A stretch of 64,000 bases of DNA from a phage, in sequence record PZ445498.1. One strand, 5' to 3'. The notes below the pieces were generated by a model that saw nothing but the letters and a program-made list of their open reading frames with translations, was not told the origin of the DNA and searched no databases. The position numbers and the translations under genes are program-made. Below are positions 3,367 to 54,673 of this stretch, one piece after another. Positions within the stretch are counted from its first letter, which is position 1, and each line of letters opens with the position of its first letter.

Positions 3367-4119
3367 ATGGGAAAAGCACGTCAAAAAAGAGAGAACCGCA
3401 ATGGTTCAAGAAAGCGTGGCAACAAGTATGAGAGTAACGTAATTCAAGCAGATTTCTCTGGTGATTACGCCAATCCAGTTGCTAAATCCCTAGTTGGTAA
3501 AAACCGTGAGCAAAAATCATATATCAATATGATCAAGAACAACACAGTGACTGTGGGTATTGGTGAACCAGGTACTGGTAAAACCTTTATTCCGTCCGTT
3601 CTTGCAGCTCAGGAACTCGTAGACATTCACTCAGATATTGAGCAAGTGATCCTCGTGCGTCCGAACGAACCTCTAGGTAAATCTCTTGGTATGCTCCCAG
3701 GTGATCTGGCAGAAAAGCTAGAGCCTTGGTTGGAACCAATAGCCGATGGCATGAAATGGTCAATCGGTGATCACGCCTACAAAGGATATGTCGAACGTCA
3801 GAAAATTAAATTCCTGGCTATCGAACATGCCCGTGGCCGAACTTTCAACAACTCCTATGTAATTGTCGATGAAGCTCAGAATATCTCCGTTGAAGCAATG
3901 ATCTGTCTCTTGACTCGTGTAGGACAAGATTGTCGTTTAATTATCTGTGGGGATATAGCTCAGAAAGACATCAAGGGTGATTCAGGTCTAGCACTTCTTA
4001 TGGAAGTCTATGAGAAGTACGAAAACTCTCCTTTCTCTATGATCGAACTGATCGACAACGTTCGCTCACCAGAGTCTAAAGCATTCTACGATATCTTTAA
4101 GGATATGGGGAAGGTGTAA
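3367..4119 (+). CDS. phoH: PhoH-like ATPase
   Basis: Walker A GEPGTGKTF and Walker B VIVDEAQN; start moved to the ATG at 3367, 6 nt after aggag (track start 3358 is GTG). Confidence 0.85.
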   Translation: MGKARQKRENRNGSRKRGNKYESNVIQADFSGDYANPVAKSLVGKNREQKSYINMIKNNTVTVGIGEPGTGKTFIPSVLAAQELVDIHSDIEQVILVRPNEPLGKSLGMLPGDLAEKLEPWLEPIADGMKWSIGDHAYKGYVERQKIKFLAIEHARGRTFNNSYVIVDEAQNISVEAMICLLTRVGQDCRLIICGDIAQKDIKGDSGLALLMEVYEKYENSPFSMIELIDNVRSPESKAFYDIFKDMGKV

Positions 4120-16367: not shown

Positions 16368-16810
16368 TGGAAGAGAATATTCTAGATGTTTTGCGTAGGG
16401 CTTTGCAGGAATCCAAGTTTAATGGTTCTGATAAAGAAGTAGCTAAAAGCTACCAGACCATAATCGGAGATCTTCAGCGTGTTGATAAAGACTTCATTAC
16501 TTCTGAACAGTTTGTATCTTATCTAAAAGCTCAACTGAAAAGCATTAATCAGACGAAAGCTAAACTTCACGGTCAAGACCTTGATAATTATAGCTTGCAG
16601 TCTGCTCAGTATGAATATATACTGAACAAATGGTTACAGCAGTATCTGCCGCCTCAGTTATCTGATTCTGAGATTCGCAAATACTTTGCAGAATTAGTTA
16701 AGTTGAATCCTGGGATTACAAAAGGTATGCTGATGAAAGCGATTAAGGAAGAGTTTCCTGGTCGTTACGACGGTGGCATTGCTGCTCAGGTTGCTGGCGA
16801 ATTTAATTAA
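16367..16810 (+). CDS. GatB/YqeY-like domain protein (putative)
   Basis: 147 aa; C-terminal ...GMLMKAIKEEFPGRYDGGIAAQVAGEF resembles YqeY domain ends. Confidence 0.4.
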   Translation: MEENILDVLRRALQESKFNGSDKEVAKSYQTIIGDLQRVDKDFITSEQFVSYLKAQLKSINQTKAKLHGQDLDNYSLQSAQYEYILNKWLQQYLPPQLSDSEIRKYFAELVKLNPGITKGMLMKAIKEEFPGRYDGGIAAQVAGEFN

Positions 16811-16818
16811 AAATTGAT

Positions 16819-16847
16819 TTGCTAAACGCCTCAAAATTCTGTATAAT
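16819..16847 (+). promoter_or_regulatory. early promoter driving the 1-kb ORF-free region
   Basis: aaaaattgatttgcta-17-tataat. Confidence 0.65.
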
Positions 16848-16849
16848 AG

Positions 16850-17875
16850 ATTCATAAATTAGAGAACAGCGAGCCGATTACGCTGAGTGAGTTTAGTGAT
16901 TCCTACTAGGATAGCTATTCCACTGAATAGAGTCGGTGAGTTTAGAATGATCACCTGTTAGAGTTCCGAGTCCAGTCCGGTATATCCGGCCAAGTGACTA
17001 GAGTAACGAATATAGGTTCGAGACTTCTTGTAAAACTCGGGAGCTGTCCCGAAACCTCGTAAACTCTTCTCTAATTTATACAAAACGATGGTTCTCAACA
17101 TGAGCTAGGCACAGTGTGAAATACGGTGCGTGTCCCAGAGGTAGAAGACTGAAGGTTGGGCTTGAGAAAACCATGTAACTTTCAACGCTGACCCGTCTAG
17201 GATGCAAGTCAAGACGTATGTATACCACAATGCGGCGATTGTCCATCGAATAGTGGGGTGTCGAACCGACTTATGTGATAACACTGCCAGATGCTCACAG
17301 GCTGACATTGAGCTTCGCTGCTCCTTCTGGAAAGAATCGGATAACTCGGGCTTATACCGGATAAGCATTCGCTGCTGGAGTACATACTATGACGGTTCAG
17401 GAGGTACGCCGCCTGATCAGTATTAGGTTAGAATCGAAACAGCTAAACCACGAAAGGACTGGGATGCTTGCTGAGCTACCCCTACCTGATACATGCCTCA
17501 GCTAACTTCGCATCGAAAATCGGAGGTGCGATTTAACCAGACCGCGTAACTATGAGAGTGGGAAATGGTAAACTGTATAGCTTGACTCTAACTTAGTTAG
17601 GTGGCTACAGAGCCTTAATGGGACAGTCTAGATACTTAGTGAACCGCGGATAACGCTAAGAATACTGTGAAAATACTATGGGAGTCATGACCCGGATGTT
17701 GCCCGATCGCTATAGTGGCGAATAACCACGAAGTCACCTTGACTTAAACTGGAAGATATTGTTCGACGGAAGGGCTGAAGAGCTTAATCTGAGGGGGCTG
17801 ACCCTACCTACCGCCGGGTATCTTTAAGAGTTCTTACGAGAGTTCTTAAACATACCTAAACATTAAGGAATACTA
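16850..17875 (+). ncRNA. candidate large structured non-coding RNA (about 1 kb, promoter-driven, ORF-free)
   Basis: Promoter 16819-16847 reads into about 1 kb with no plausible ORF, GC about 48 % versus about 38 % around it, many short hairpins and T-loop-like GGTTCGA motifs. Confidence 0.3.
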
Positions 17876-18385
17876 ATGAATCTAGGAACTACTTGTATAT
17901 TTGATCACAGAGAAATGTGTTGCCCACATATCCTCTACGTAGTTCACTTTGCAGAGCGTCTTACGCTGGATGAAGCTCGTGAGAAAATGAGTGGAATTAC
18001 TGGATATGACTTCCGTGAAGGTGAATACTTTAGCGTTGCTCTTGATTACATTGACAATACCCGTCTTTATCATCTAGTGCAGCTAGGGGAAGAAACTGAT
18101 GAAGTGAAAATGGCGAAAGATACTTTACGTCGTTATCGTCCTCAGATTCTAGAACGTACACTTCGTGGTGAGTTCAGTGACCCATTCTTTTTGAAGTGTT
18201 ATGATGCAGACGCTAATGAGTACTTGGGGCGACAAAGGTTTTACAAAGAAATCAAAGAGTTTGTGGGTGAAAAATACGAAGCACTACTCGTTGATTCTAG
18301 AGCACGACGTGCAGCTAAAAATGCTGAGAAATCAGCTAAAGCAGCACTAGAAAGTCAAACCAAACTGAACGAAATCGTTAAGTGA
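17876..18385 (+). CDS. hypothetical protein
   Basis: 169-aa ORF, RBS aaggaa upstream. Confidence 0.5.
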   Translation: MNLGTTCIFDHREMCCPHILYVVHFAERLTLDEAREKMSGITGYDFREGEYFSVALDYIDNTRLYHLVQLGEETDEVKMAKDTLRRYRPQILERTLRGEFSDPFFLKCYDADANEYLGRQRFYKEIKEFVGEKYEALLVDSRARRAAKNAEKSAKAALESQTKLNEIVK

Positions 18386-18393: not shown

Positions 18394-18468
18394 CGGGGTG
18401 TAGTCTAAGGGATAGGCAGGAGTCTTCTAAATTCCTTTATGCAGGTTCGAATCCTGTCACCTCGGCCA
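18394..18468 (+). tRNA. tRNA-Arg (anticodon UCU)
   Basis: Acceptor cggggtg/cacctcg, anticodon loop cttctaa, T-arm gcagg-ttcgaat-cctgt, CCA encoded. Confidence 0.75.
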
Positions 18469-18501
18469 ACTTTAATAACTGTAACTAAACAAAGGAAATA
18501 T

Positions 18502-19446
18502 ATGTTTACTAAAAACACTAAAGAACTAACTTCTGAGCAAAAAGTAATTCGTACTATTAAACGTTGGGGTGTTGGTGCTGCTGTTGGTCTTGGTGCTCTT
18601 ATTCTGGCTCTCAATTCCTATACAGTTGTTCAGGATGGTACTGTTAAGACCCAAACCTTCCTGGGTAAAGTTAGCCCTAATCCTGTATTGCCAGGCTTCC
18701 ATATTGTTAACCCATTTGCTTCTTTTGATACTTTTAGTACGAAAGATATTTCCATGAAACTGGATAAACTTCAGGTGCCTAGCCAGGATAAGTTTAAGTC
18801 TACTGTTGACATTACCGTTATGTTGCAGTTTGATGGTGCTAAAGCTCCTATGAACCGTGTTAACGCAGGTACTCAGGATCAAGCTCTGAACAAGTACGTT
18901 GAAGAGAAGATGCTGTCTACGATTCGTGAGTTTGGTAAGTCTGTACCAAAAGCACAAGATCTGTTCGACGCTAAGATTCAGGCTCAACTGCAAACCGCTA
19001 TTCAGCAAGAAGTAGAAGAGTACGCGCGTCCTTATGGCTACACCGTTAAGCAAGTATTCCTTCAGGATATTACTCTGCCACCGGTAATCATGGAACAGGT
19101 ACAGAACACTAAAGTTCGTGAAGAACAAGTTAACGCTGCAAAAGCTGAACTAGCTCGTGTTGAACAAGAAGCACAGCAGAAAGTTAAGCAAGCTGAAGCT
19201 GATCGTTCTGCTCGTGAAAATATGGCAGTAGCTAACGAACGTGACGCAGATGCTAAACTGTACGCAGCTAAGAAAGAAGCTGAAGCTAACGCCGCTCTGC
19301 AACGTACCATTACTCCTGAAATGATTCGTTGGAAGCAGCTGGAAGTTGAAATGCTTCGTGCTGAAAAATACCAAGGTGGTGTACCGCAGACTGTTGTTGG
19401 TACTGGCTACGATGGTCAAATGATCATGGATATGCGTAACAAGTAA
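18502..19446 (+). CDS. SPFH/band-7 (prohibitin/HflK-like) membrane protein
   Basis: N-terminal TM helix then SPFH-like region and a long Ala/Glu/Lys coiled coil; start at ATG 18502 after aaggaaa. Confidence 0.6.
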   Translation: MFTKNTKELTSEQKVIRTIKRWGVGAAVGLGALILALNSYTVVQDGTVKTQTFLGKVSPNPVLPGFHIVNPFASFDTFSTKDISMKLDKLQVPSQDKFKSTVDITVMLQFDGAKAPMNRVNAGTQDQALNKYVEEKMLSTIREFGKSVPKAQDLFDAKIQAQLQTAIQQEVEEYARPYGYTVKQVFLQDITLPPVIMEQVQNTKVREEQVNAAKAELARVEQEAQQKVKQAEADRSARENMAVANERDADAKLYAAKKEAEANAALQRTITPEMIRWKQLEVEMLRAEKYQGGVPQTVVGTGYDGQMIMDMRNK

Positions 19447-28806: not shown

Positions 28807-29391
28807 ATGCAGTTTGTACCAATAAAAGATGCACCAGGGTATTTAGTAAATGAAACAGGGGATGTGTTATCTACATTTACTAATAAAATTTTATCAAGAT
28901 ATATAGTTGATGGATACCCTGCTGTAAAATTACAGATAAATGGTAAGCAAACTTCGGTACTTATACACCGAATTATTTCCCATGTATTTGGGGACTTATA
29001 TAATCTATTTGATCCTGAATTAGAAGTAGATCACAAGGATAGAGATAGGCTGAATCTATCTAAAGATAATCTTCAAGTTTTATCAAAAATAGAACATCAG
29101 AAGAAAACTAATAAAGATAATGGATGGTCTGATAGTAGAGTACCTTGCCCCTTATGTGGAAATCTAATGCTTCAGAGATCAGTAACATGTACAAATTGTA
29201 AGCCAAAACCTACAGGAAAGTTAATAAAACCAGAATTGTCCTTAGAAGACATAACTGAAAAGGTTTTATTAATGGGGTGGGTTAAGGCAGCTAAAGATCT
29301 AGAAGTATCAGAGTCCACTTTACGTAGACGATATACTAAACTAACCGGATTAAGCCCAAAAGTATTAACAGAACAACGGAAAAGCAAATAG
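28807..29391 (+). CDS. HNH homing endonuclease with C-terminal Cys-rich region
   Basis: Paralogue of ORF 25374 (ELEVDHKDRD..NLQVLSKIEH; CPLCGN...CTNC); 3' end overlaps tRNA-Ser by 14 nt. Confidence 0.7.
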   Translation: MQFVPIKDAPGYLVNETGDVLSTFTNKILSRYIVDGYPAVKLQINGKQTSVLIHRIISHVFGDLYNLFDPELEVDHKDRDRLNLSKDNLQVLSKIEHQKKTNKDNGWSDSRVPCPLCGNLMLQRSVTCTNCKPKPTGKLIKPELSLEDITEKVLLMGWVKAAKDLEVSESTLRRRYTKLTGLSPKVLTEQRKSK

Positions 29392-29471
29392 ACTGGTGAC
29401 TAAACCCGATTGGAAATCGGTTGAGGGGTAGCAATACCGCCTTATGGGTTCAACTCCCATCTTTTCCGCCA
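29378..29471 (+). tRNA. tRNA-Ser (anticodon GGA), type II
   Basis: Acceptor ggaaaag/cttttcc, loop ttggaaa, long variable arm, T-arm atggg-ttcaact-cccat, CCA. Confidence 0.6.
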
Positions 29472-29483
29472 AACAATTTATAT

Positions 29484-29578
29484 GGTAGGTCAATCCAATG
29501 GCTGGCGCTGGACTCCGACTTGAAATCGGTTGATCGTAGTGATACGGTGTAAGGGTTCGATCCCCTTACCTACCTCCA
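29484..29578 (+). tRNA. tRNA-Ser (anticodon UGA), type II
   Basis: Acceptor ggtaggt/acctacc, loop cttgaaa, long variable arm, T-arm aaggg-ttcgatc-ccctt, CCA. Confidence 0.65.
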
Positions 29579-29959
29579 AATCTTGAAGTATGCCGGAATC
29601 GGTAGACGGGGCTTCCTAAAGGGCGTAAGGGGAACATCCACTCCTCATAAGATACCCGAAAATGAGGCTGAGATAAATGGTCTATCTCATGAAGGTTCAA
29701 GTCCTTCTGCTTCTTGATACATTAATGGCTCAAAGTGTAACGGTGCTATTTGATGTTCTTAGTAAGACTTTCCCGACATGCGTTCGGGAGTAAGCTGCTA
29801 AGGCTAGAGTAGAAGAGTTTCGGAGAGCCGCCACAATTGAGTATTATTAGAGAGCATTCGCAAGAAAGAATCAGGAGAAAAACCTGTGCGCAGAATGACT
29901 AACTTTGGTACCTTAGACGGCCAAATGGAGGACTGATCATCCCCTAATAGTATTCAATT

Positions 29960-30036
29960 GTGGCTATATCATAATTGGTTAATGATCCTGATTGTGAATC
30001 AGGCCTATGTGGATTCGAATTCTACTAGCCACCCCC
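29960..30036 (+). tRNA. tRNA-His (anticodon GUG)
   Basis: Acceptor gtggcta/tagccac, stem cctga/tcagg with loop ttgtgaa, T-arm gtgga-ttcgaat-tctac; 3' end reads cccca. Confidence 0.75.
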
Positions 30037-30043
30037 AAATATA

Positions 30044-30118
30044 GCGTCCTTATTTCAACGGAAAGAATGTAAAGCTACGAACTTTACGATCGGGGTTCGA
30101 TTCCCTGAGGATGCACCA
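30044..30118 (+). tRNA. tRNA-Arg (anticodon ACG)
   Basis: Acceptor gcgtcct/aggatgc, stem taaag/cttta with loop ctacgaa, T-arm cgggg-ttcgatt-ccctg, CCA. Confidence 0.75.
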
Positions 30119-30142
30119 ATTAACTTAAACAGGAAATAAAAT

Positions 30143-30343
30143 ATGGCTGATTTCTGCAAAGAATGCTCTATTGATATGTGGGGAAGAGATACTGGTGATC
30201 TTTCTGGTCTGATTACAGAAGCCGAAGTTAAAGAAGGCTATGGTGCTGTTGTAATCTGTGAAGGTTGTGGCATTATCCGTGTTGATCATAATGGTAAACG
30301 TCTAGAAGAACCTGATCCAATCGCCACGGTTCCTGTAGAATAA
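30143..30343 (+). CDS. small Cys-rich protein
   Basis: CKEC...CEGCG. Confidence 0.5.
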   Translation: MADFCKECSIDMWGRDTGDLSGLITEAEVKEGYGAVVICEGCGIIRVDHNGKRLEEPDPIATVPVE

Positions 30344-30351
30344 AAAATTAT

Positions 30352-30427
30352 TGGAGTGTAGCTCAACTGGCAGAGCGACGGTTTCTGACACCGTAGGTTT
30401 CTAGTTCGATCCTAGACATTCCAGCCA
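30352..30427 (+). tRNA. tRNA-Gln (anticodon CUG)
   Basis: U1-A72 acceptor tggagtg/cattcca, D-arm gctcaactggcagagc, stem acggt/accgt with loop ttctgac, CCA. Confidence 0.8.
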
Positions 30428-30433
30428 AACAAT

Positions 30434-30511
30434 TGGGGATTAGCTTAGCTTGGCCTAAAGCTTCGGCCTTTGAAGTCGAGATCATTGGTTCAAATCCAAT
30501 ATCCCCTGCCA
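30434..30511 (+). tRNA. tRNA-Gln (anticodon UUG) probable
   Basis: D-stem gctt/aagc, stem tcggc/gtcga with loop ctttgaa, T-arm attgg-ttcaaat-ccaat, CCA; 1-72 mismatch. Confidence 0.6.
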
Positions 30512-30519
30512 AACAATAA

Positions 30520-30595
30520 GCGGTTAAGCACACGGGTTGTGCCGCAGGCCTTCCAAGCCCCGCTGAGTAGGGTTCGATTCCCTCTAGCCGCTCCA
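30520..30595 (+). tRNA. tRNA, anticodon UCC (Gly) possible
   Basis: Acceptor gcggtta/tagccgc, D-arm gcac-acgggtt-gtgc, T-loop ttcgatt, CCA; anticodon stem weak. Confidence 0.5.
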
Positions 30596-30612
30596 ACTTT
30601 AAGGAAACATTT

Positions 30613-30834
30613 ATGCACGTTTTTGAGTTTCGTGATAAAAGTAACAATAAACGAGTTATTGTTATTGGAGAAACATACCTAGCATACGAACAAACTGACG
30701 GCTCTGTTATCTTGAATGATGAGAAAGCAAATTTTAGCTTTTATCCAGAAGAACCTTATGAAGAGTTTCGTACTAAGTTTCTTTTACCAGACTGGCTAGC
30801 AGTAGCCGAGCAACTAGAATCCGAAGATGGCTGA
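30613..30834 (+). CDS. hypothetical protein
   Basis: 73 aa, aaggaaa RBS. Confidence 0.5.
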   Translation: MHVFEFRDKSNNKRVIVIGETYLAYEQTDGSVILNDEKANFSFYPEEPYEEFRTKFLLPDWLAVAEQLESEDG

Positions 30835-30985
30835 TAACCTGAGACTAAAGGTTGACAAACAAAAGAAACGTGTAGAGATTGAGCTTGGTGACGAACGCCT
30901 AGCACTATCCTTCGAGTTTCTTCAGCAGTTGGCGATGACAGTAATGTCTGATAAGTCTCCTGTATTTGAAAAAGAAATCCCGTTG
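30827..30985 (+). CDS. hypothetical small protein (52 aa, below the ORF-track cutoff)
   Basis: ATG overlaps the preceding stop (ATGGCTGA); MADNLRLKVDKQKKRVEIELGDERLALSFEFLQQLAMTVMSDKSPVFEKEIPLK. Confidence 0.35.
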
Positions 30986-31001
30986 AAATGACGGGTTTAT
31001 T

Positions 31002-31076
31002 GCTCCTAAAGCATTGCTGGCGATGCAGTTGCCTTGTAAGCATCTGAACTGGGTTCGACTCCTGGTGGGAGCACCA
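31002..31076 (+). tRNA. tRNA-Thr (anticodon UGU)
   Basis: Acceptor gctccta/tgggagc, loop cttgtaa, T-arm ctggg-ttcgact-cctgg, CCA. Confidence 0.7.
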
Positions 31077-31091
31077 AATTTAAAAATTCAT

Positions 31092-31120
31092 TTGCCTTCT
31101 CTCTTATTTCTTGTTATAAT
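31092..31120 (+). promoter_or_regulatory. early promoter
   Basis: ttgcct-17-tataat. Confidence 0.6.
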
Positions 31121-31150
31121 ATTTATATAAATTAATGAGAGGGAAACCAA

Positions 31151-31444
31151 ATGAAACGTTATCTTTCTGTCGTGTTCCAAACTGGTGGTCAACGCTACAC
31201 TTATGAATTTCCTGAGTCCTGGAAAATTAAAGAAGGTGATCAAGTTGTTGTATTAACACCTCGTGAAGGCTTCAAAGTAGTAACGGTTAAACAAGTCTTT
31301 CCAAAAGATCACGAACCATCTAAGTCTATTCAGTACAAGATGATTCACGGTCTGGTACGAAAAGTACCTAGAACAGAAGTCGAAGTAGATAAAACTGGGG
31401 AAGCTAAATACCAGTATACTTCTTACTTGGATGAAATGATGTAA
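31151..31444 (+). CDS. hypothetical protein
   Basis: 97 aa, promoter 31092-31120 and shared leader. Confidence 0.5.
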   Translation: MKRYLSVVFQTGGQRYTYEFPESWKIKEGDQVVVLTPREGFKVVTVKQVFPKDHEPSKSIQYKMIHGLVRKVPRTEVEVDKTGEAKYQYTSYLDEMM

Positions 31445-31445
31445 T

Positions 31446-31521
31446 GCTCTGATAGTTCAACAGGTTAGAACAGGCGACCGATAATCGTCAAATCTTGGTT
31501 CGATCCCAAGTCGGAGTACCA
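31446..31521 (+). tRNA. tRNA-Ile (anticodon GAU); C at position 33
   Basis: Acceptor gctctga/tcggagt, D-arm gttcaacaggttagaac, stem ggcga/tcgtc with loop ccgataa, T-arm cttgg-ttcgatc-ccaag, CCA. Confidence 0.7.
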
Positions 31522-31527
31522 AATTAT

Positions 31528-31603
31528 AGTTAGTTGGCAGAGTGGTTATGCACCTCCTTCATACGGAGCGACTACAGTGGTTCAACTCCACTACTAACTA
31601 CCA
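31528..31603 (+). tRNA. tRNA with CAU anticodon (Met, fMet or Ile2)
   Basis: Acceptor agttagt/actaact, loop ttcatac, T-arm agtgg-ttcaact-ccact, CCA. Confidence 0.65.
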
Positions 31604-31786
31604 AAGATAAGATCAGGCCTTTGTGCCAGATCTCTGTGTTTATTAAACTGAATGGGACTATCAATCCACAAGCCGGACTACGAGCGATTATCGGGTATTC
31701 ACTTAATAAACAGCCTGCCTCCCAGTTTTTATCTTGCTTCTGGGTTAACAAAAAGCTGAGCCAAATTCTAACATCAGGGAGATCTA

Positions 31787-32155
31787 ATGAAAGCATATCA
31801 AAGTCTTAAGTCTGGCGTAATTAACCTTGTTCATGATAACCAGATCATTCAGCTATATTCTAAAGATGGTGAACTTAAACAAAAGGTTCTAGTTGAAGAT
31901 CTAGAGGGTATCACACCTCATTTTGACCCTGAGGCCTTCCGCATTGTAGATGTAGAAGTGGTTCCTCAAGTCGAGGGTGGTCAGCACCTAAATGTCAATG
32001 TGTTAAGCCGTGATCAGCTTTTGGATGCACAGAAACATCTTGAAAAATATCCTCAGTTGACCATCCGTGTCTCTGGCTATGCTGTTCGATTTAACGCATT
32101 GACGCGTGAACAACAGAACGACGTTATTAGTCGTACATTTACTCAGGCGATATAA
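31787..32155 (+). CDS. hypothetical protein
   Basis: 122-aa ORF. Confidence 0.5.
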
Positions 32156-32236
32156 TGGGGTTTGGATACGATTTCTCCCAACTACGCAAGGTAGTCGAGC
32201 AAACTCCATTTATCTCCCAAGTTTTAGGAGAAATGT

Positions 32237-32536
32237 GTGGATCGAGCAGTAAGACGCCATCACCGGCAACGTGTGAAAAACAATCGCAAGAAGTATTGGA
32301 CAGTCTTCCCACATGAAGAAAGCCCTAAGAGGTTAGGCATTATCACTACCACTCCTTGCATCTGTTCTTGTTGGATGTGTGGGAATCCTCGCAAATACTA
32401 TAAGAATAGTAAAGCAGGCATGAAAATTTCGGAGATTAAAAAGATGGATGCAATGATTATGGGCATCACCTTTACAGGTGGTATCTCTGATGAATTCGAC
32501 GGTTTTGTAACTCAGGATATTGTCGAAATTATCTAA
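32237..32536 (+). CDS. hypothetical Cys-rich protein
   Basis: 99 aa, PCICSCWMCGNP; start codon uncertain (GTG). Confidence 0.4.
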   Translation: MDRAVRRHHRQRVKNNRKKYWTVFPHEESPKRLGIITTTPCICSCWMCGNPRKYYKNSKAGMKISEIKKMDAMIMGITFTGGISDEFDGFVTQDIVEII

Positions 32537-32545
32537 TTAATAATA

Positions 32546-32582
32546 AACCCCAGCTATTGAATACGTAGTCTGGGGTTTTCTT
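32546..32582 (+). terminator. rho-independent terminator
   Basis: aaccccag ... ctggggtt followed by ttcttg. Confidence 0.6.
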
Positions 32583-32600
32583 GTATATAGGATTTTCGAA

Positions 32601-32786
32601 ATGAAAATTTTTAAAGTGAACTATAGCGGCCTGTGGTTAGGTGGTACAGCTATTGTTGTTGCGGAAACTGCGGAAGAAGCAATCGAACTGGCTAGAAATC
32701 ATAGAAGTTCTATAGAATTCGAGAATGTGACAGCAGAAGAACTCCCTAGCAGTGGGGTAGTATACAACGATAACGGAGACTACTAA
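32601..32786 (+). CDS. hypothetical protein
   Basis: 61 aa, follows terminator 32546-32582. Confidence 0.45.
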   Translation: MKIFKVNYSGLWLGGTAIVVAETAEEAIELARNHRSSIEFENVTAEELPSSGVVYNDNGDY

Positions 32787-32845
32787 ATGTTATATTTTGA
32801 AGTTAGACCACATTAAGTTACTTTAACAGACTTAATGGAGGTATT

Positions 32846-33199
32846 ATGAGCCGTACATATCGTAAACAATCGGGAAATCGTCACTGGCGTGATGCACATC
32901 GTTCTAAATTCAACTTTACTCTTGGGTACAATCGTCGTTTCTTTGCTTTGAAGGAGCCAGCAGTCCCGTATACTAGAGAAGAAGTTGAAAAGGAATTACA
33001 AGACCATATCATTAAATATGAGAAGAAGGATGGTTACAACTGGGATTCTATCAGCCAAGCCGTCAAGTGGCACTCTAACAAAATGGTTCGTCAAGGAAAC
33101 CGTATGGAACTGCATCGTGTTATGCAAGATCCGGAAAATTACGACTACAACTGCGATCATGACCTACGTAAGCGTGGGTTATGGTGGTGCTACGACTAA
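32846..33199 (+). CDS. hypothetical protein
   Basis: 117 aa. Confidence 0.5.
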   Translation: MSRTYRKQSGNRHWRDAHRSKFNFTLGYNRRFFALKEPAVPYTREEVEKELQDHIIKYEKKDGYNWDSISQAVKWHSNKMVRQGNRMELHRVMQDPENYDYNCDHDLRKRGLWWCYD

Positions 33200-33216
33200 T
33201 TTCGTAAATAATTCAT

Positions 33217-33245
33217 TTGCTAAAACCCTCTCCTTTTGATATAAT
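33217..33245 (+). promoter_or_regulatory. early promoter
   Basis: ttgcta-17-tataat. Confidence 0.65.
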
Positions 33246-33275
33246 ATTTATATAAATTGATGAGAGGGCTTTGAA

Positions 33276-33557
33276 ATGAAAACTCGCCTAGACTGTGCTG
33301 TTCACGTACTTGAGCATGATGTTGTTGGGACTTGTATGTCTTATCATGAAGCAGGTAAAATGATTGTTAAACGTGTTGCTGATGTTTGTAGTTTGAAAAT
33401 CACCGAAGATGAAGCAGACGAACTGCTTGGACAGGCAATAGAGAAAACAGAAATTTTCTTGTGCGATTCTTGTTCTTGGTGGTGTGAAGCTCACGAACAT
33501 TCTTTCAATGATTATGATGTATGCCGTGACTGTAAAGAGGACGATGAAGATGAATAA
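33276..33557 (+). CDS. Cys-rich zinc-binding protein
   Basis: CDSCSWWCEAH...CRDC. Confidence 0.5.
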   Translation: MKTRLDCAVHVLEHDVVGTCMSYHEAGKMIVKRVADVCSLKITEDEADELLGQAIEKTEIFLCDSCSWWCEAHEHSFNDYDVCRDCKEDDEDE

Positions 33558-33849
33558 GTTTATTATTGCTCTGGTAATTTCAGCAGTCAGTTTCGGTTCT
33601 CTGGCATCTACCAAAGTTTCTATGAAGAATGGTAATGTTAAAGTTCAGCAGAATGGCATTACCACCGAATATGGTAAAGTACGTGGTGTAAAAGAACGTA
33701 ATGGCAAAGTAGAAATATATACTAATAAAAACTTCTCTACTCCGGCTGTTACTGTTAGTAAACGTGGTGAAATCACTACTCAACGTACTAATAGTTCTGA
33801 TTCTTTTACTTGCCGTTATGACTGCGGCTTTGAAGGTGAAGATGAGTAA
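33544..33849 (+). CDS. hypothetical secreted protein
   Basis: Signal peptide MKMNKFIIALVISAVSFGSLAS; start overlaps the previous stop. Confidence 0.5.
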   Translation: MKMNKFIIALVISAVSFGSLASTKVSMKNGNVKVQQNGITTEYGKVRGVKERNGKVEIYTNKNFSTPAVTVSKRGEITTQRTNSSDSFTCRYDCGFEGEDE

Positions 33850-34261
33850 TTTAGACCCTAGAATTAAACATGCAGTTGAAGAAATCCAAGATCAAATCGA
33901 TGAGGATTTCACTGTTTGGTCAAGATTTGGTAATGGTGAAGGTTGTCAGCTTTATAGCATGAAAATGGGTATCTCGATTGAACTTAGTATCAATCCCGAG
34001 GGTAACGTAGAAGCCCAACCCCTGTTCAGTGTTCCAGGCTTCTCTGGATTTGTTATGGGCATGAAACTATGTCTACCAAATAAACATCTTTACCGTGTTA
34101 TCTGTCAGCTAGAAACAATTAAACATTTCTTGCCAGAAGATAACATTAATGACTACTATCATGAAGTTGTAGCAGCTTACATGATGAAAGAACGCAAACG
34201 TCGGAGAGCAGAACGTGAAAGAGCTAAATCTCAACAGTCTAGTACAGATTCCAGCAACTGA
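33842..34261 (+). CDS. hypothetical protein
   Basis: Start at ATG overlapping the previous stop (ATGAGTAA). Confidence 0.5.
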   Translation: MSNLDPRIKHAVEEIQDQIDEDFTVWSRFGNGEGCQLYSMKMGISIELSINPEGNVEAQPLFSVPGFSGFVMGMKLCLPNKHLYRVICQLETIKHFLPEDNINDYYHEVVAAYMMKERKRRRAERERAKSQQSSTDSSN

Positions 34262-34508
34262 TGCTGTACTAGAATATCTTAGAAAGGATCATGTTAAATT
34301 CTGGACTGATTATAGCTACGATCATAACTCAGATTTAGCTACTGATTTTGCAAATAAACGAATAGCTGAGTATAAAGATCCTAGAGTTAAAAATGGTATG
34401 ATTACCTTACCACTTTGGGATGTAATGGAAAAGTTTGGTAAAGATTTGTGCCCAGGTTGTATACCATTGTTTGTTACTATTCTAATTGACGAAAAGGATC
34501 TTAAATGA
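34215..34508 (+). CDS. hypothetical protein (start uncertain)
   Basis: Track ORF with GTG start overlapping the previous gene by 47 nt. Confidence 0.35.
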   Translation: MKELNLNSLVQIPATDAVLEYLRKDHVKFWTDYSYDHNSDLATDFANKRIAEYKDPRVKNGMITLPLWDVMEKFGKDLCPGCIPLFVTILIDEKDLK

Positions 34509-34789
34509 TTATCTCTCCATTTGCTTTGTGGTTTGTTATTGGTGCAGTTGTCGCGATTTATAGCCTGATTGATGATCTGTATATCTCTAAAAATAAAGAT
34601 GTTATTCTTTATGTTATAAACAAATATCGTACACCAGAATTAGCAGAATTTGACGATGAAAAGATGTTCAAATTCATTATGTCAGGTATGCTTATTATGG
34701 ACACCTTGTTCGGGCCAGTAGCTACTTATTTCTTCTTTCGTAAAACTCGTAAGATGAAAAAATTCCGTGCTGAAATGCAGAGCAAGTAA
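34505..34789 (+). CDS. hypothetical membrane protein
   Basis: 94 aa, hydrophobic N-terminus. Confidence 0.5.
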   Translation: MIISPFALWFVIGAVVAIYSLIDDLYISKNKDVILYVINKYRTPELAEFDDEKMFKFIMSGMLIMDTLFGPVATYFFFRKTRKMKKFRAEMQSK

Positions 34790-34905
34790 AGAACTCGCGT
34801 AGGACCGAGTTGCGTCACCTGCAACTGTTACGGATAAGGGAGTCGTGCCCCTTAGTGCGGTAAGTGGTGAGTTGGTCGCGGACCTCAACTTTAACTGGAG
34901 ATATC

Positions 34906-35253
34906 ATGAGCTTTATTTTATTCATTGTAGCAGCATGGTTTATTATTGGTTTAGGCTATGCTATTGCAGTTATTCGTCATCTGGATGAATATTCTGCTGA
35001 ATGGTTTATTAAGTACCTACGTTTAGACGATCAAGAATATGAGTTCGACAGTGATGAGGAAAGGCAGGCTGTCCAGTCAATGACTCCCAAAGAATGCTTG
35101 CTCTACATGCGTGTAATTGGTTTCTTTGGACTGTTGGTAGCAGGACCGCTAGGTCTTACTATTGCTCCTTACAAAGACGTTATTGACGACATTAAACTAT
35201 GGAGAACCGCTGGATCGCTACGTCGTGCTAGAGAATTAAGTAAACAAGAGTGA
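34906..35253 (+). CDS. hypothetical membrane protein
   Basis: Start at MSFILFIVAAWF. Confidence 0.5.
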   Translation: MSFILFIVAAWFIIGLGYAIAVIRHLDEYSAEWFIKYLRLDDQEYEFDSDEERQAVQSMTPKECLLYMRVIGFFGLLVAGPLGLTIAPYKDVIDDIKLWRTAGSLRRARELSKQE

Positions 35254-35288
35254 TGATAATCACCTCCTAGCAAGAATAATAATGACAA

Positions 35289-35326
35289 AGCCCAGTCGCA
35301 AAATTGCAGGCTGGGCTATTTTTTGT
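35289..35326 (+). terminator. rho-independent terminator
   Basis: agcccag ... ctgggct followed by attttttg. Confidence 0.7.
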
Positions 35327-35339
35327 AATAAAATTTCAG

Positions 35340-35368
35340 TTGCTCAGATGCCACAAGTATTATATAAT
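35340..35368 (+). promoter_or_regulatory. early promoter
   Basis: ttgctc-17-tataat, follows terminator 35289-35326. Confidence 0.6.
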
Positions 35369-35399
35369 ATGTTTATAGATTGAGGCAAGAGGATTAAAT

Positions 35400-36080: not shown

Positions 36081-36520
36081 TAAAAAACTTTATTAGTTCT
36101 CTATGGCAAGGTAAGTGGTATATCCTGGGAGCTGGTCTTGCGATAGGTATCGGATTCGGTGCTTATCATTTAGTAAATAAGGTCGAAACTTTAGCGGGAG
36201 ATCTTGCAGTTGCGACTAAAAAGATCTCCACTCTAGAGACTTCTCTTAATAAAGTGAAAACTGAGAGTGAACTTCGTGAGACTCGAATGAACCAGTATTT
36301 TACAATGAATAATATTTCGCAAGCAGATCTAGACAAAAAGATTAAGCAGTTAGATAAAGCTCTTAGTCGTCAAGATGTTATTGCTGCAAAGCCTGGATTG
36401 GTAACATTAATTGCTAAAAAGCAGAATAAAGAGTTCGAGGAAAGATTAGCATGTTTAACTGGAAACTTGGAGTACTGCTCGCAGCCGCAATCACAATCAC
36501 AGGCTGTGCAGAAGAAATAA
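36077..36520 (+). CDS. membrane-anchored coiled-coil protein
   Basis: N-terminal TM helix then coiled coil. Confidence 0.5.
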   Translation: MIKNFISSLWQGKWYILGAGLAIGIGFGAYHLVNKVETLAGDLAVATKKISTLETSLNKVKTESELRETRMNQYFTMNNISQADLDKKIKQLDKALSRQDVIAAKPGLVTLIAKKQNKEFEERLACLTGNLEYCSQPQSQSQAVQKK

Positions 36521-37556: not shown

Positions 37557-37568
37557 TTAAGGATCACT

Positions 37569-38168: not shown

Positions 38169-38177
38169 GTAGTTTTA

Positions 38178-38210: not shown

Positions 38211-38271
38211 CCTAAAATTCTTCTTGACAACGACAAAAAATTGTGCTCCAGAAGTGATCTTAAAAAACACA

Positions 38272-40366: not shown

Positions 40367-40890
40367 TTACCCAAGAAAGATTGAAGGAGCTTCTAGAGTA
40401 CAATCCAGATACAGGGATATTTATATGGAAGAGCCGAAAGATAGATAGAAGTGGTTTTAACAAGCAATTCGCAGGAAAAGTTGCTGGCAATCCTCAAAAT
40501 AACGGTTATATCAATATTACTGTTGATTCCGAAGTTCATGGGGCACATAGATTAGCTTTTCTTTACATGGAAGGCTATATGCCTGCAAGGGTAGACCACG
40601 AAAACATGGTTAGGTCTGATAACAAATGGCTTAACCTACGAGAAGCTACAGTCTCTCAAAATGGTGCTAATGCGTTAAAGTATTCGAATAATAGTTCTGG
40701 ATATAAGAACGTATACTGGACAAAGAAAACGTGTAAATGGCAAGTACAGGTTATGAAAGATGGTAAATCCTACTCGGGAGGATACTTCACAAACCTCAAA
40801 GATGCTGTAGAAACTGCCAATGAGTTAAGATTTGAATTATTTGGGGAATTTGCCCTATATGAACCATTTAAAGGAGATAAACATGAGTAA
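40363..40890 (+). CDS. HNH homing endonuclease
   Basis: VDHENMVRSDNKWLNLREA HNH core, same family as ORFs 6920 and 21918. Confidence 0.7.
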   Translation: MITQERLKELLEYNPDTGIFIWKSRKIDRSGFNKQFAGKVAGNPQNNGYINITVDSEVHGAHRLAFLYMEGYMPARVDHENMVRSDNKWLNLREATVSQNGANALKYSNNSSGYKNVYWTKKTCKWQVQVMKDGKSYSGGYFTNLKDAVETANELRFELFGEFALYEPFKGDKHE

Positions 40891-41173
40891 ATTAGTATAT
40901 CTATTAAAGGGATCTACCTGCAATCCTTGTAAACTTTTCGAGCCTGTATTCGATAAAGTAGTACAGGACTACAGTCTAGAAGTTCATAAAGAGACTGATA
41001 ATACAGAACTTATGCAGAAATTTGGCGTTCGTCAGGTTCCTGTAGTAGTTTTAGCAGATCGTCTCCCGAATGGTCGTGTGGAAGCCAACCACATTCTGAT
41101 TGGTCGTCAACTTCGTAAAGAAACTATGCATGACGCAATCAAAAACTTCCTGGAAGATAATCCAGAAGATTAA
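40883..41173 (+). CDS. thioredoxin/glutaredoxin-like protein
   Basis: CNPC (CxxC) active-site motif near the N-terminus; start at ATG after aaggag. Confidence 0.55.
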   Translation: MSKLVYLLKGSTCNPCKLFEPVFDKVVQDYSLEVHKETDNTELMQKFGVRQVPVVVLADRLPNGRVEANHILIGRQLRKETMHDAIKNFLEDNPED

Positions 41174-41181
41174 TAAATCTA

Positions 41182-41212
41182 ACCCAGATCTTAGCTGATC
41201 TGGGTTTTTCTT
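41182..41212 (+). terminator. rho-independent terminator
   Basis: cccagatc ... gatctggg followed by tttttc. Confidence 0.7.
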
Positions 41213-41215
41213 TAT

Positions 41216-41244
41216 TTGCCAAACGCCTAAAATTTTGATATAAT
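41216..41244 (+). promoter_or_regulatory. early promoter
   Basis: ttgcca-17-tataat, follows terminator 41182-41212. Confidence 0.6.
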
Positions 41245-41275
41245 ATATTTATAAATTGATGAGAGGAGTATCACA

Positions 41276-41656
41276 TTGAATTACGCATATCTTATAATAC
41301 ATAATAACGTGGTCTGTGGTACTCGTGCTGTAGAAATGGGAATCACAGAAGAAAAATATAAGTCACTGCCTGAAAAGGAGCAAGAATATTATGTTGAGCA
41401 AGCTGCTTGGGAATATGCTGAGGCTTATCCCGAAGAACGTGAAGGCCGTGTTACTATTGTTGTTACTTTGGGGCTGGTGGGCTGTGATACCGAAGTTGAT
41501 ACAGATATAGAAACACTTGAAGAATGGGAAGAGTTGGATATTGCAGAACAAAATGCTATCATCCATCAATCTTTCTGGGAAGCAGTAGACTGTCACGTTG
41601 TCTTTGAGCCAAACGATACAGAAGCTGAAAAACACACTAATTGGATGACTCGATAA
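41276..41656 (+). CDS. hypothetical acidic protein
   Basis: 126 aa; start codon TTG per track. Confidence 0.45.
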   Translation: MNYAYLIIHNNVVCGTRAVEMGITEEKYKSLPEKEQEYYVEQAAWEYAEAYPEEREGRVTIVVTLGLVGCDTEVDTDIETLEEWEELDIAEQNAIIHQSFWEAVDCHVVFEPNDTEAEKHTNWMTR

Positions 41657-54664: not shown

Positions 54665-54673
54665 ATATAAGTC

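What the first reader, a model, noticed from the sequence alone, without database searches (positions are those of the whole stretch)
16850..17875. About 1 kb promoter-driven ORF-free region: candidate large structured RNA
A canonical early promoter (16819-16847) reads into about 1 kb in which no frame holds a credible ORF (the longest are 74 and 87 codons with no RBS and cross each other). GC is about 48 % against about 38 % for the flanking genes. The segment is dense in short hairpins (e.g. ccggtatatccgg, ctcgggagctgtcccgaaacctcg) and T-loop-like GGTTCGA motifs, and ends just before gene 17876 and tRNA-Arg. In a tightly packed phage early region, 1 kb of transcribed non-coding sequence is unlikely to be filler. 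It could be a large ornate RNA of the kind found near tRNA genes in phages, a self-splicing intron remnant, or a decayed tRNA array.
Basis: seen in the sequence. Interest (0 to 1): 0.7.

Follow-up and report, generated by a model that had tools for sequence, protein, structure and literature searches.

The report
Phage T5 "RNAX" stable RNA homologue
This 1-kb gene-free stretch is this phage's copy of "RNAX", a long folded non-coding RNA listed in the phage T5 reference genome as a stable RNA of unknown function, so it is real and conserved but not a new discovery.

Summary
A T5-type early promoter (16819-16847) reads into about 1 kb (16854-17862, + strand) with no conserved ORF and raised GC (46 %).

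The locus is syntenic and colinear with the T5 feature misc_RNA rnaX, "RNAX, stable RNA with unknown functions". That feature lies between the YqeY-like gene and tRNA-Arg(UCU), behind promoter P16-17. No Rfam family matches (E<=10), including GOLLD, ROOL and the intron models.

Comparison with about 45 T5-like loci from three genera shows conserved blocks separated by swappable domains. Several helices show compensatory base changes:
- a 12-bp helix, P1 (17266-17279 with 17336-17349), 100 % paired, 6 pairs changed on both sides;
- a 5' terminal stem;
- a hairpin with a conserved loop;
- a 3' three-way junction;
- a 16-bp terminal hairpin whose changes are all G-U compatible on the + strand.

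In most relatives P1 carries a tRNA-like domain (Rfam tRNA 33-38 bits). In this window a 45-nt non-tRNA element replaces it.

Only about a third of the RNA has direct comparative support, and global folding energy is unremarkable. Function remains unknown. Verdict: a new member of a known but uncharacterised phage RNA. It resembles GOLLD and ROOL in setting and organisation but is not a member of either.

The parts
16819..16847 (+). Sigma-70-type early promoter (TTGCTA, 17-nt spacer, TATAAT). It is the homologue of T5 promoter 'P 16-17'. The predicted transcription start is near 16854.
   Evidence: Consensus scan; alignment to the T5 promoter region at 89 % over 55 nt; T5 annotation; repeated promoter family in the window.
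16854..17862 (+). Body of the RNAX-like non-coding RNA. The ends annotated for T5 rnaX correspond to window 16861 and 17860.
   Evidence: Colinear blocks A, C1, C2, D2 and E found in all 45 loci examined; T5 misc_RNA rnaX; ORFs not conserved; no Rfam match.
16856..16866 (+). P0, 5' strand (AAATTAGAGAA) of the 5'-terminal stem.
   Evidence: Pairs with 17067-17077. In T5 the same stem is a simple 13-bp hairpin at the 5' end. RNAalifold keeps it, with G-U changes and an insertion matched on both strands. A compensated variant, AGATG/CATCT, occurs in L031.
16867..17066 (+). Domain B1, inserted in the loop of P0. It is absent from T5. It contains the conserved junctions AACAGCGAGCCGATTACGCTGA and TGAATAGAGTCGGTGAGTT, with variable hairpins between them.
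   Evidence: The closing stem of the variable V1 hairpin has 3 pairs changed on both sides.
17067..17077 (+). P0, 3' strand (TTCTCTAATTT).
17078..17250 (+). Domain B2, an accessory domain found only in some Epseptimavirus and Sugarlandvirus genomes and absent from T5. Its structure was not resolved.
   Evidence: Block map.
17251..17265 (+). Conserved block TAGTGGGGTGTCGAA just 5' of P1. It is nearly invariant across three genera. CGAA (17262-17265) may pair with TTCG (17368-17371).
   Evidence: Alignments. T5 has GGAA with TTCC, a compensated change seen by eye; its register differs by one column, so it was not formally tested.
17266..17279 (+). P1, 5' strand (CCGA C TTAT G TGAT).
   Evidence: the count of structure pairs on the MAFFT alignment A1: 12 pairs, 100 % paired, 6 with changes on both sides. 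The C.C and G.G mismatches are conserved. The single-sequence minimum-free-energy fold gives the same helix.
17286..17330 (+). Apical domain on P1. This 45-nt two-hairpin element takes the place of the 74-nt tRNA-like domain of most relatives. Its closing helix, CCAGA (17287-17291) with TCTGG (17326-17330), is in register with the tRNA-like acceptor stem.
   Evidence: Alignments; fold. The tRNA-like domain in relatives scores 33-38 bits against Rfam tRNA, above the gathering score of 29, and ARAGORN draws it as a cloverleaf.
17336..17349 (+). P1, 3' strand (ATCG G ATAA C TCGG).
17350..17366 (+). Hairpin H2 (GCTTAT ACCGG ATAAGC).
   Evidence: 6 pairs, 2 with changes on both sides; three pair types (A-U, U-A, C-G) at one position.
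17367..17680 (+). Domain D, a mosaic region whose pieces are shared with different phages. Apart from D2, its structure is unresolved.
17508..17531 (+). D2 hairpin: stem TCGCA/TGCGA and a conserved 14-nt loop, TCGAAAATCGGAGG. It is followed by the conserved sequence ATTyTAmCAGACCGCGT.
   Evidence: The stem changes G-C to A-U in Sugarlandvirus and becomes TACATA/TATGTA in L072 and L074, while the loop motif is kept.
17681..17692 (+). Almost invariant GGAGTCATGACC, which contains the self-complementary 8-mer GTCATGAC (17684-17691). Its partner is unresolved.
   Evidence: Alignment A2: 11 of 12 columns invariant. RNAalifold pairs it with 17733-17745, but every column is invariant, so there is no covariation test.
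17707..17721 (+). Variable hairpin (TCGC TATAGTG GCGA).
   Evidence: 5 covarying pairs, the top-scoring helix in the whole-alignment scan.
17732..17744 (+). Hairpin Ha (AGTCA CCT TGACT), followed by the conserved sequence TTAAACTGGAAGATA.
   Evidence: 99 % paired; one A-U to G-U change.
17763..17817 (+). Three-way junction. Outer helix 17763-17769 with 17811-17817, continued by 17771-17773 with 17807-17809. Hairpin A is 17774-17783. The linker CTTAAT (17783-17788) is invariant. Hairpin B is 17792-17805.
   Evidence: Four unrelated sequence types fold to the same architecture. Covariance model R1 finds it in all 33 loci searched. On the model-fitted alignment, pairs changed on both sides number 4 of 10 (outer helix), 2 of 3 (hairpin A) and 3 of 4 (hairpin B).
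17818..17855 (+). 3'-terminal hairpin: 16 bp, one internal mismatch, loop TACG, and no U-tract after it.
   Evidence: 100 % paired in 29 distinct sequences. Six pairs vary on one side only, always between G-U and G-C or A-U, which fits only the + strand.
17876..18385 (+). Context: a 169-codon accessory ORF with ribosome-binding site AAGGA at 17866-17870. It sits between the RNA and tRNA-Arg and is absent from T5 and SH9.
   Evidence: No Pfam or PHROG match.
18394..18468 (+). Context: tRNA-Arg(UCU), which in T5 directly abuts the 3' end of RNAX.
   Evidence: 99 % identical to the T5 tRNA-Arg.

Best explanation
Window 16854-17862 (+ strand) is the orthologue of rnaX of phage T5, which the T5 reference record annotates as 'RNAX, stable RNA with unknown functions'. 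It is a non-coding, multi-domain structured RNA.

Shown here:
- Homology and synteny with T5 rnaX.
- The promoter.
- Absence of a conserved reading frame.
- Strand-specific, covariation-supported helices: P0, P1, H2, D2, a variable hairpin, a 3' three-way junction and the terminal hairpin.
- A build of conserved junction sequences with swappable apical domains. One such domain is a tRNA-like element in most relatives; in this phage a 45-nt two-hairpin element replaces it.

Inferred biogenesis: host RNA polymerase starts at the early promoter and makes one transcript that also carries tRNA-Arg(UCU), plus ORF169 in this phage. The 5' end is locked within two or three nucleotides into the long stem P0. 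The 3' end finishes in a 16-bp hairpin. In T5, RNase P cutting at the 5' end of the abutting tRNA-Arg would release the RNA 6-7 nt after that hairpin. These terminal helices would shield the RNA from 5'-end-dependent RNase E attack and from 3' exonucleases, which would explain why it is stable. How the 3' end forms in this phage, where ORF169 intervenes, is not known.

Speculative function: the RNA acts in trans as a scaffold or decoy. It would present conserved loops, and in most relatives a tRNA-shaped acceptor and T-arm elbow on a long stem, to tRNA-handling, RNA-decay or anti-phage factors during early infection.
For: T5 annotation of rnaX, promoter P16-17 and the abutting tRNA-Arg.

Colinear conserved blocks in 45 loci from Tequintavirus, Epseptimavirus and Sugarlandvirus. 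509 phage records hold at least 80 % of the 3' domain.

ORFs are not conserved.

Helix evidence:
- P1, the acceptor-like stem and H2: 93.8 % of cells paired against 32-45 % when the partners are slid; 14 pairs changed on both sides; 0 of 500 shuffles reach the observed value on four of the five measures (all but the count of further pair types).
- 3' domain: model R1 matches all loci at E<1e-12, with 96.5 % paired against 31-54 % slid.
- D2 shows compensatory changes.
- P0 is conserved as a hairpin in T5 and as the closing stem of an inserted domain here.
- One-sided changes are all G-U compatible on the + strand only.

The tRNA-like domain exceeds the Rfam tRNA gathering score in T5 and five other loci.
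Against: - No transcript data were available. 'Stable RNA' rests on the T5 GenBank annotation alone, and I found no paper describing it.
- Whole-region folding energy is unremarkable.
- In an unbiased scan of the full alignment, antiparallel helices were no more numerous than the parallel-diagonal null (471 against 473). Only helices with 3 or more covarying pairs were enriched (7 against 2).
- Only about a third of the RNA has direct comparative support.
- The conserved blocks are 84-91 % identical between window and T5, no better than the neighbouring SPFH gene at 85 %.
- In L010 and rutana an HNH endonuclease gene replaces the 5' third. The tRNA-like domain is replaced here. So large parts are dispensable.
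- In this phage ORF169 follows the RNA, so the region could stay attached as a 5' untranslated region.
- The proposed function has no direct support.
Confidence: 0.7

Rival explanations
1. It is a long, structured, cis-acting 5' leader rather than a free RNA. Its role would be to direct processing, stability or timing of the downstream early genes (ORF169, tRNA-Arg, the SPFH protein). It would have no function once cut off.
For: It always lies between an early promoter and tRNA-Arg on the same strand, with no terminator between them. In this window the 3' hairpin ends 10 nt before the ribosome-binding site of ORF169. In L010 and rutana an HNH gene takes the place of the 5' domain, so the remainder is then internal to an mRNA.
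Against: T5 annotates it as a stable RNA species. 0.6-1.4 kb of conserved helices, conserved loop sequences and a tRNA-like domain is far more than leaders normally need. Both ends are built like those of stable RNAs.
Confidence: 0.2
2. It is evolutionary debris of the tRNA island: decayed tRNA genes and scars of homing-endonuclease traffic. It would be transcribed only because it lies behind a promoter, with no function of its own.
For: Most relatives carry one degenerate tRNA-like element whose anticodon reads ACU, UCA or CGA in different phages. A metagenomic variant has lost its D arm. The region is highly mosaic. In some phages an HNH gene sits in it. T5 carries other 'tRNA-like stable RNAs'.
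Against: Compensatory changes keep helices unrelated to tRNA in P1, D2 and the three-way junction. Blocks are near-invariant across three genera. No other tRNA remnant is detectable at E<=10. When the tRNA-like domain is replaced, the new element keeps a closing helix in the same register.
Confidence: 0.06
3. It is a divergent member of a described family: GOLLD, ROOL, a group I or II intron, or a Y-RNA-like tRNA mimic.
For: Shared setting and organisation with GOLLD and ROOL: phage-borne, at a tRNA island, conserved 3' region, variable 5' region, and tRNAs sometimes embedded (bioRxiv 10.1101/2024.12.08.627333). A GNCGAA-like motif (GTCGAA) sits next to a stem that bears a tRNA-like domain, as in YrlA (PMC4201824).
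Against: No Rfam family matches at E<=10 in the window, or at E<=1 in seven relatives apart from tRNA. T5 has GTGGAA with a compensating change in its likely partner, so that motif looks conserved for pairing, not as a protein-binding site. In YrlA, by my recollection, the stem continues from the anticodon side, whereas here it continues from the acceptor stem.
Confidence: 0.02
4. It is a protein-coding gene hidden by frameshifts or unusual decoding.
For: ORFs of 74 and 87 codons exist.
Against: They overlap on opposite strands and are broken by frameshifts and stops in relatives at 96 % identity. Insertions and deletions are not in multiples of three. The CDSs other annotators placed here have no PHROG family.
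Confidence: 0.01

Closest known systems
Phage T5 rnaX ('RNAX, stable RNA with unknown functions'; misc_RNA 40848..41566 of AY543070 / NC_005859)
   Same: Same locus: after the YqeY-like gene T5.081, behind promoter P16-17 and upstream of tRNA-Arg(UCU). Shared features are the 5' stem P0, the C1 block, helix P1, hairpin H2, the GGAGTCATGACC block, hairpin Ha with the AACTGGAA block, the three-way-junction architecture and the terminal hairpin.
   Different: The window RNA is about 1000 nt against 719 nt in T5. It has two extra 5' domains: B1 inside the P0 loop, and B2. Its tRNA-like domain is replaced by a 45-nt element. Domain D is largely unrelated in sequence. The three-way junction is of a different sequence type. 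T5 has a tandem duplication of the Ha block. Here a 169-codon ORF separates the RNA from tRNA-Arg.
GOLLD and ROOL large ornate RNAs of phages and prophages
   Same: Large (over 500 nt) non-coding RNAs of unknown function, phage-encoded and often next to tRNA islands. [quoted passage not shown] RNAX shows the same setting and the same three organisational traits.
   Different: No sequence or structure match to either Rfam model. Self-assembly is untested. Comparative support here covers separate modules, not one ornate global fold or pseudoknots.
Other T5 tRNA-region stable RNAs (RNAI, RNAIII, RNAIV, RNA1, RNA2, RNA2H, RNA3). From my own knowledge only, also the small stable RNAs rnaC and rnaD of the phage T4 tRNA cluster.
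   Same: Phage-encoded stable RNAs of unknown function that are co-transcribed with tRNA genes. Some are tRNA-like.
   Different: Those are 70-170 nt. RNAX is 4-10 times longer and multi-domain. No sequence similarity to RNAX was found within the T5 tRNA region, apart from promoter sequences and T-arm words.
Bacterial Y RNA YrlA (a tRNA-mimicking module on a protein-binding stem)
   Same: A tRNA-like module with acceptor, T and D features carried on a conserved stem, with a GNCGAA-like motif beside it (PMC4201824).
   Different: No Rfam hit. The topology differs: here P1 extends the acceptor stem. The motif is not conserved in T5. No Ro60/Rsr gene was seen in the neighbourhood, though I did not search the whole genome.

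Membership tests
T5 RNAX (rnaX) orthologue group | Position between the YqeY-like gene and tRNA-Arg(UCU), on the same strand, behind the P16-17-type early promoter | tested here: met
   In Sugarlandvirus the upstream gene is an endolysin instead.
T5 RNAX (rnaX) orthologue group | Colinear sequence homology to T5 rnaX | tested here: met
   Blocks at window gap positions 1-55, 440-478, 912-948 and 1008-1050 match T5 at 85-97 % in the same order. Model R1, built without T5, finds T5 at 67 bits, E = 7e-13.
T5 RNAX (rnaX) orthologue group | Non-coding | tested here: met
   ORFs are broken in close relatives.
T5 RNAX (rnaX) orthologue group | Accumulates as a stable RNA in infected cells | not testable with these tools
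   Rests only on the T5 GenBank annotation. No expression data or paper found.
GOLLD RNA | Match to the Rfam covariance model (conserved 3' domain) | tested here: not met
   No Rfam match at E<=10 in 16780-17900, and none in seven relatives at E<=1.
ROOL RNA | Match to the Rfam covariance model | tested here: not met
GOLLD / ROOL | Self-assembly into multimeric RNA-only cages | not testable with these tools
   The only hint is an invariant self-complementary GUCAUGAC at 17684-17691.
Group I / group II introns | Match to the intron covariance models; flanking exons of one interrupted gene | tested here: not met
   No Rfam match. The flanks are separate complete genes.
tRNA gene array (decayed) | tRNA-model matches inside the region | tested here: not met
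   None in the window. A low-threshold ARAGORN run gives only a dubious 'tRNA-???' with a two-base anticodon. Relatives have exactly one tRNA-like domain, at 33-38 bits.
Bacterial Y RNA (YrlA) | Covariance-model match; a Ro60/Rsr gene nearby; the GNCGAAN0-1G motif in the Ro-binding strand | tested here: not met
   No Rfam match. The motif is only partly present (GTCGAACC) and is GTGGAA in T5. No Rsr gene among the neighbouring genes.

The most novel reading that the evidence does not exclude
RNAX is a further, undescribed class of large phage RNA that works like GOLLD and ROOL. It would be a tRNA-island-associated RNA with a conserved 3' core, a swappable 5' half and an embedded tRNA mimic. 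It would either self-assemble, perhaps through the invariant self-complementary GUCAUGAC, or act as a decoy or scaffold against tRNA-targeting host defences or RNA-decay enzymes in enterobacteria.
Probability: 0.2. Interest if true: 0.8.

Novelty: new member of a known kind. Interest (0 to 1): 0.5.

Why it matters
T5-like phages are model viruses and widely used therapy candidates. More than 500 sequenced genomes carry this locus, yet nearly all records leave it blank or fill it with spurious small ORFs or 'tRNA-Sec' and 'tRNA-OTHER' calls.

Recognising it as RNAX gives annotators a name for the gap. It also gives RNA biologists a tractable E. coli and Salmonella system for a large phage RNA of unknown function that has no Rfam family.

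The map produced here (terminal stems, helix P1 with a replaceable tRNA-like tip, the D2 loop, the 3' junction) tells an experimenter where to mutate, where to probe and what to pull down. If the RNA proves to be a decoy or an assembly like GOLLD or ROOL, it would connect those enigmatic RNAs to a genetically accessible phage.

Tried and rejected
- Rfam at permissive thresholds, on the window and on seven relatives: only tRNA hits.
- Whole-region folding-energy z-score: uninformative, since a coding control scored lower.
- Unbiased helix scan of the 44-sequence full-length alignment against a parallel-diagonal null: no overall excess, only a few strongly covarying helices. I therefore do not claim long-range pairings. 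These include GTGG (17254-17257) with CCAC (17726-17729), and GGAGTCATGAC with hairpin Ha; all the columns involved are invariant.
- z-scores of the three-way junction by sequence type: -0.2 to -2.4, weak on their own.
- Protein-coding reading: rejected.
- Host origin: no match in 5,426 E. coli genomes.
- Wider distribution: an IMG/VR pattern scan found only T5-like genomes. A metagenome scan gave 70 hits, of which about 12 are genuine and all are T5-like.
- The Shine-Dalgarno-like GGAGG in the D2 loop: not universal (GGTGG in L072 and L074), and no conserved start codon follows.
- YrlA-like Ro-binding motif: partial, and lost in T5.
- Link between the adjacent YqeY-like gene and the tRNA-like domain: no correlation. 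The window keeps YqeY but lacks the domain. Sugarlandvirus has the domain but no adjacent YqeY.
- Literature: nine full-text searches found no paper on RNAX. The known viable T5 deletions (29191-32442 and 30661-38625) do not cover rnaX (PMC11464382). The 2018 paper on T5 deletion mutants is not held in the library.
Full report
**1. The observation**

The window comes from a T5-like phage (family Demerecviridae). Over this region the closest records are Salmonella phage SH9 (97.6 % identity over 79 % of the query) and, for the 3' half, vB_SalS_KFSSM (98.7-99.3 %).

A sigma-70-type promoter, TTGCTA-17-TATAAT, lies at 16819-16847. The 50 nt around it belong to a repeated promoter family with at least ten other copies in the window. 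From the stop of the upstream gene (16810) to the ATG at 17876 no ORF reaches 90 codons. The longest, 87 and 74 codons, overlap on opposite strands. GC is 46 %, against 38-42 % in flanking stretches.

The description is therefore correct, with three corrections:
- tRNA-Arg(UCU) (18394-18468) follows the 169-codon ORF, not the region itself.
- The GGTTCGA words are not detectable tRNA remnants.
- The folding energy of the whole stretch is ordinary: z = -1.64, while one coding control reached -3.73.

**2. What it is**

The gap is conserved in position in every T5-like genome examined. These comprise 9 annotated records, 26 IMG/VR loci and 10 further records, from Epseptimavirus, Tequintavirus and Sugarlandvirus. 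Most records leave it unannotated, or fill it with small ORFs or with 'tRNA-Sec' or 'tRNA-OTHER' calls.

The T5 reference record is the exception. Between T5.081 (the YqeY-like protein) and tRNA-Arg, it annotates misc_RNA rnaX, 'RNAX, stable RNA with unknown functions' (40848-41566, 719 nt). Promoter 'P 16-17' precedes it and tRNA-Arg abuts it. The other T5 record (AY587007) marks a tRNA pseudogene inside it.

Window and T5 share colinear blocks. These are the promoter and 5' end (89 %), a 39-nt block (85 %), and pieces of the 3' domain (91-97 %). All 45 loci hold the same ordered blocks. The T5 rnaX ends correspond to window 16861 and 17860.

**3. Non-coding**

The window's ORFs are intact only in SH9, which is 99-100 % identical over them. 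In Eps7, at 96 % identity, they already carry frameshifts and several stops. A 110-codon CDS that others annotated inside the Sugarlandvirus copy has no PHROG family, whereas the gene just after the RNA does.

**4. Architecture**

RNA length ranges from 617 to 1429 nt. This is because conserved junction sequences are separated by domains that come and go.

*(a) 5' end.* In T5 the RNA begins with a 13-bp hairpin, AAATTAGAGAG...TTCTCTAATTT. In the window the same two strands (16856-16866 and 17067-17077) close a roughly 200-nt inserted domain, B1. A second accessory domain, B2 (17078-17250), follows. In L010 and phage rutana the whole 5' part is replaced by a 160-codon HNH endonuclease gene (Pfam HNH_3, 1.2e-11).

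*(b) Core.* The block TAGTGGGGTGTCGAA is followed by helix P1, 17266-17279 (CCGA-C-TTAT-G-TGAT) pairing with 17336-17349 (ATCG-G-ATAA-C-TCGG).
- On a plain MAFFT alignment of 19 distinct sequences, P1 is 100 % paired, with 6 of its 12 pairs changed on both sides. The C.C and G.G mismatches are conserved.
- The whole tested structure is P1, the acceptor-like stem, the T arm and hairpin H2. It is 93.8 % paired, against 32-45 % when partners are slid. None of 500 shuffles reaches the observed covariation.
- P1 is capped in most phages by a 74-nt tRNA-like domain. It has a good acceptor stem and T arm (GGTTCGAATCC) but degenerate D and anticodon arms. The 'anticodon' reads ACU, UCA or CGA in different phages. 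It scores 33-38 bits against Rfam tRNA, whose gathering score is 29.
- In the window, SH9, Eps7 and STG2, a 45-nt two-hairpin element (17286-17330) replaces this domain. Its closing helix, CCAGA/TCTGG, sits exactly in the register of the acceptor stem.

*(c) Domain D (17367-17680).* This domain is a mosaic of pieces shared with different phages. It contains the D2 hairpin (17508-17531), whose stem shows compensatory changes. TCGCA/TGCGA becomes TCACA/TGTGA in Sugarlandvirus and TACATA/TATGTA in two Epseptimaviruses. Its 14-nt loop, TCGAAAAnCGGnGG, is kept.

*(d) 3' domain (17681-17862).* Its elements, in order:
- the almost invariant GGAGTCATGACC;
- a variable hairpin with five covarying pairs;
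- hairpin Ha, followed by TTAAACTGGAAGATA;
- a three-way junction built around an invariant CTTAAT, which exists in four unrelated sequence versions;
- a 16-bp terminal hairpin.

A covariance model built from eight window-type sequences found the domain in all 33 loci searched (67-164 bits). On the model-fitted alignment 96.5 % of cells pair, against 31-54 % when slid. Both-side changes occur in the outer helix (4 of 10 pairs), hairpin A (2 of 3) and hairpin B (3 of 4). The terminal hairpin is 100 % paired, with six pairs that vary only between G-U and Watson-Crick. That alignment leans towards the model, so these counts are supportive rather than independent.

The G-U pattern in P1, P0 and the terminal hairpin fits only the + strand.

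**5. Limits of the structural claim**

I scanned the full-length alignment without assuming any structure. Antiparallel helices were no more frequent than parallel 'helices' (471 against 473). Only those with three or more covarying pairs were enriched (7 against 2). About a third of the window RNA has direct comparative support. B2, most of D, and all long-range contacts remain unresolved. Between window and T5 the conserved blocks are 84-91 % identical, comparable with the neighbouring SPFH gene (85 %) and above the YqeY gene (66-73 %).

**6. How it probably works**

*Shown:*
- a strong early promoter;
- one strand, with no terminator before tRNA-Arg;
- a 5' end that enters a long stem within two or three nucleotides of the predicted start;
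- a 3' end that is a long hairpin without a U-tract, lying 6-7 nt before tRNA-Arg in T5.

*Inferred:* the RNA is made as the first part of an early transcript. In T5, RNase P cleavage at tRNA-Arg releases it. Its terminal helices protect it from RNase E and 3' exonucleases, which would account for the 'stable RNA' label. P1 extends the acceptor stem of the tRNA-like domain through an internal loop. This should disfavour RNase P cleavage there and keep the mimic embedded.

In this window ORF169, with its ribosome-binding site 10 nt after the hairpin, intervenes. The 3' end must therefore form in another way, or the RNA stays a 5' untranslated region.

*Speculative:* the RNA acts in trans as a scaffold or decoy. 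No result here speaks to function. The known viable T5 deletions do not cover rnaX (PMC11464382).

**7. Comparison with what is known**

It is a member of the T5 RNAX orthologue group; synteny, homology and non-coding nature were all tested and met. It is not a member of GOLLD, ROOL, the intron families or any other Rfam family.

It does resemble GOLLD and ROOL in setting and organisation. The cryo-EM paper describes both as phage and prophage RNAs, often found near tRNA islands. It describes GOLLD as having a conserved 3' region, a less conserved 5' region and sometimes tRNAs in its linker. A partial likeness to the bacterial Y RNA YrlA, a tRNA mimic on a stem beside a GNCGAA-like word, does not hold up.

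The family seems confined to T5-like phages of enterobacteria:
- 509 phage records hold at least 80 % of the 3' domain.
- IMG/VR and metagenome scans found only T5-like contigs.
- No E. coli genome carries it.

**8. Verdict**

However, the RNA has been annotated in T5 for some twenty years. It is a new member of a known but uncharacterised kind.

What is new here is the comparative anatomy: covariation-supported helices, swappable domains, and the loss of the tRNA-like tip in this phage. Interest is moderate (0.5). A large, conserved, Rfam-absent phage RNA in a tractable system is worth an experiment, but nothing here reveals its function.

Noticed in passing
window 29484-29578 and 30520-30595: Two further tRNA genes that default ARAGORN missed: tRNA-Ser(UGA) and tRNA-Gly(UCC). 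They appear only at a lowered threshold, and as sub-threshold Rfam tRNA-Sec hits (37.6 and 28.5 bits). They lie where T5 has tRNA-Ser1 and tRNA-Gly1. The window would then hold 28 tRNA genes rather than 26.
   Followed up: partly
window 17876-18385: A 169-codon ORF with a good ribosome-binding site and no Pfam or PHROG family. It sits between the RNA's 3' hairpin and tRNA-Arg in some Epseptimaviruses (S126, HMD-P2, oselot, STG2, rutana, 1-23). It is absent from T5, SH9 and TrudiGerster, so it is an accessory-gene insertion site.
   Followed up: partly
L010 3488-3970 and L071 (Salmonella phage rutana) about 440-920: In these phages a 160-codon HNH homing-endonuclease gene replaces the whole 5' third of RNAX (P0, B1, B2), directly behind the same promoter. 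Homing-endonuclease traffic may drive the mosaicism of this locus.
   Followed up: partly
window 54387-56222: A second ORF-poor stretch of 1.8 kb, with nothing of 90 or more codons. It is conserved in over 500 T5-like genomes and overlaps an annotated repeat_region in vB_SenS-3. It probably corresponds to the long non-coding region at the border of the first-step-transfer segment described for T5 and BF23 (PMC10644984).
   Followed up: partly
window 17684-17691: A self-complementary 8-mer, GTCATGAC, inside the almost invariant GGAGTCATGACC. It could pair with hairpin Ha (17733-17745) or with a second RNA molecule. All columns are invariant, so covariation cannot decide.
   Followed up: no
L034 (T5) 3970-4093 (gap positions 535-658): T5 itself carries a tandem duplication, roughly 90 nt apart, of the Ha hairpin plus the AACTGGAA block of RNAX. 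Its close relatives (L030, L013, L017) lack it.
   Followed up: no
L141 and L099 (metagenome contigs): Further domain swaps at the tip of P1. L141 combines a T5-type stem with a Sugarlandvirus-type long-armed tRNA-like domain. In L099 the tRNA-like domain is about 10 nt shorter in its D-arm region than in its closest relatives.
   Followed up: no
window 18439-19446: The 335-codon ORF listed mechanically overlaps tRNA-Arg. The real SPFH / Band 7 gene probably starts at about 18502, matching the 315-codon T5.080.
   Followed up: partly
window 12114, 13961, 16128, 21848, 24736, 41211, 43711, 44219 (each about 50 nt): Copies of the same roughly 50-nt early-promoter sequence that drives RNAX, at 74-88 % identity. 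They would serve as a promoter map of the window.
   Followed up: no
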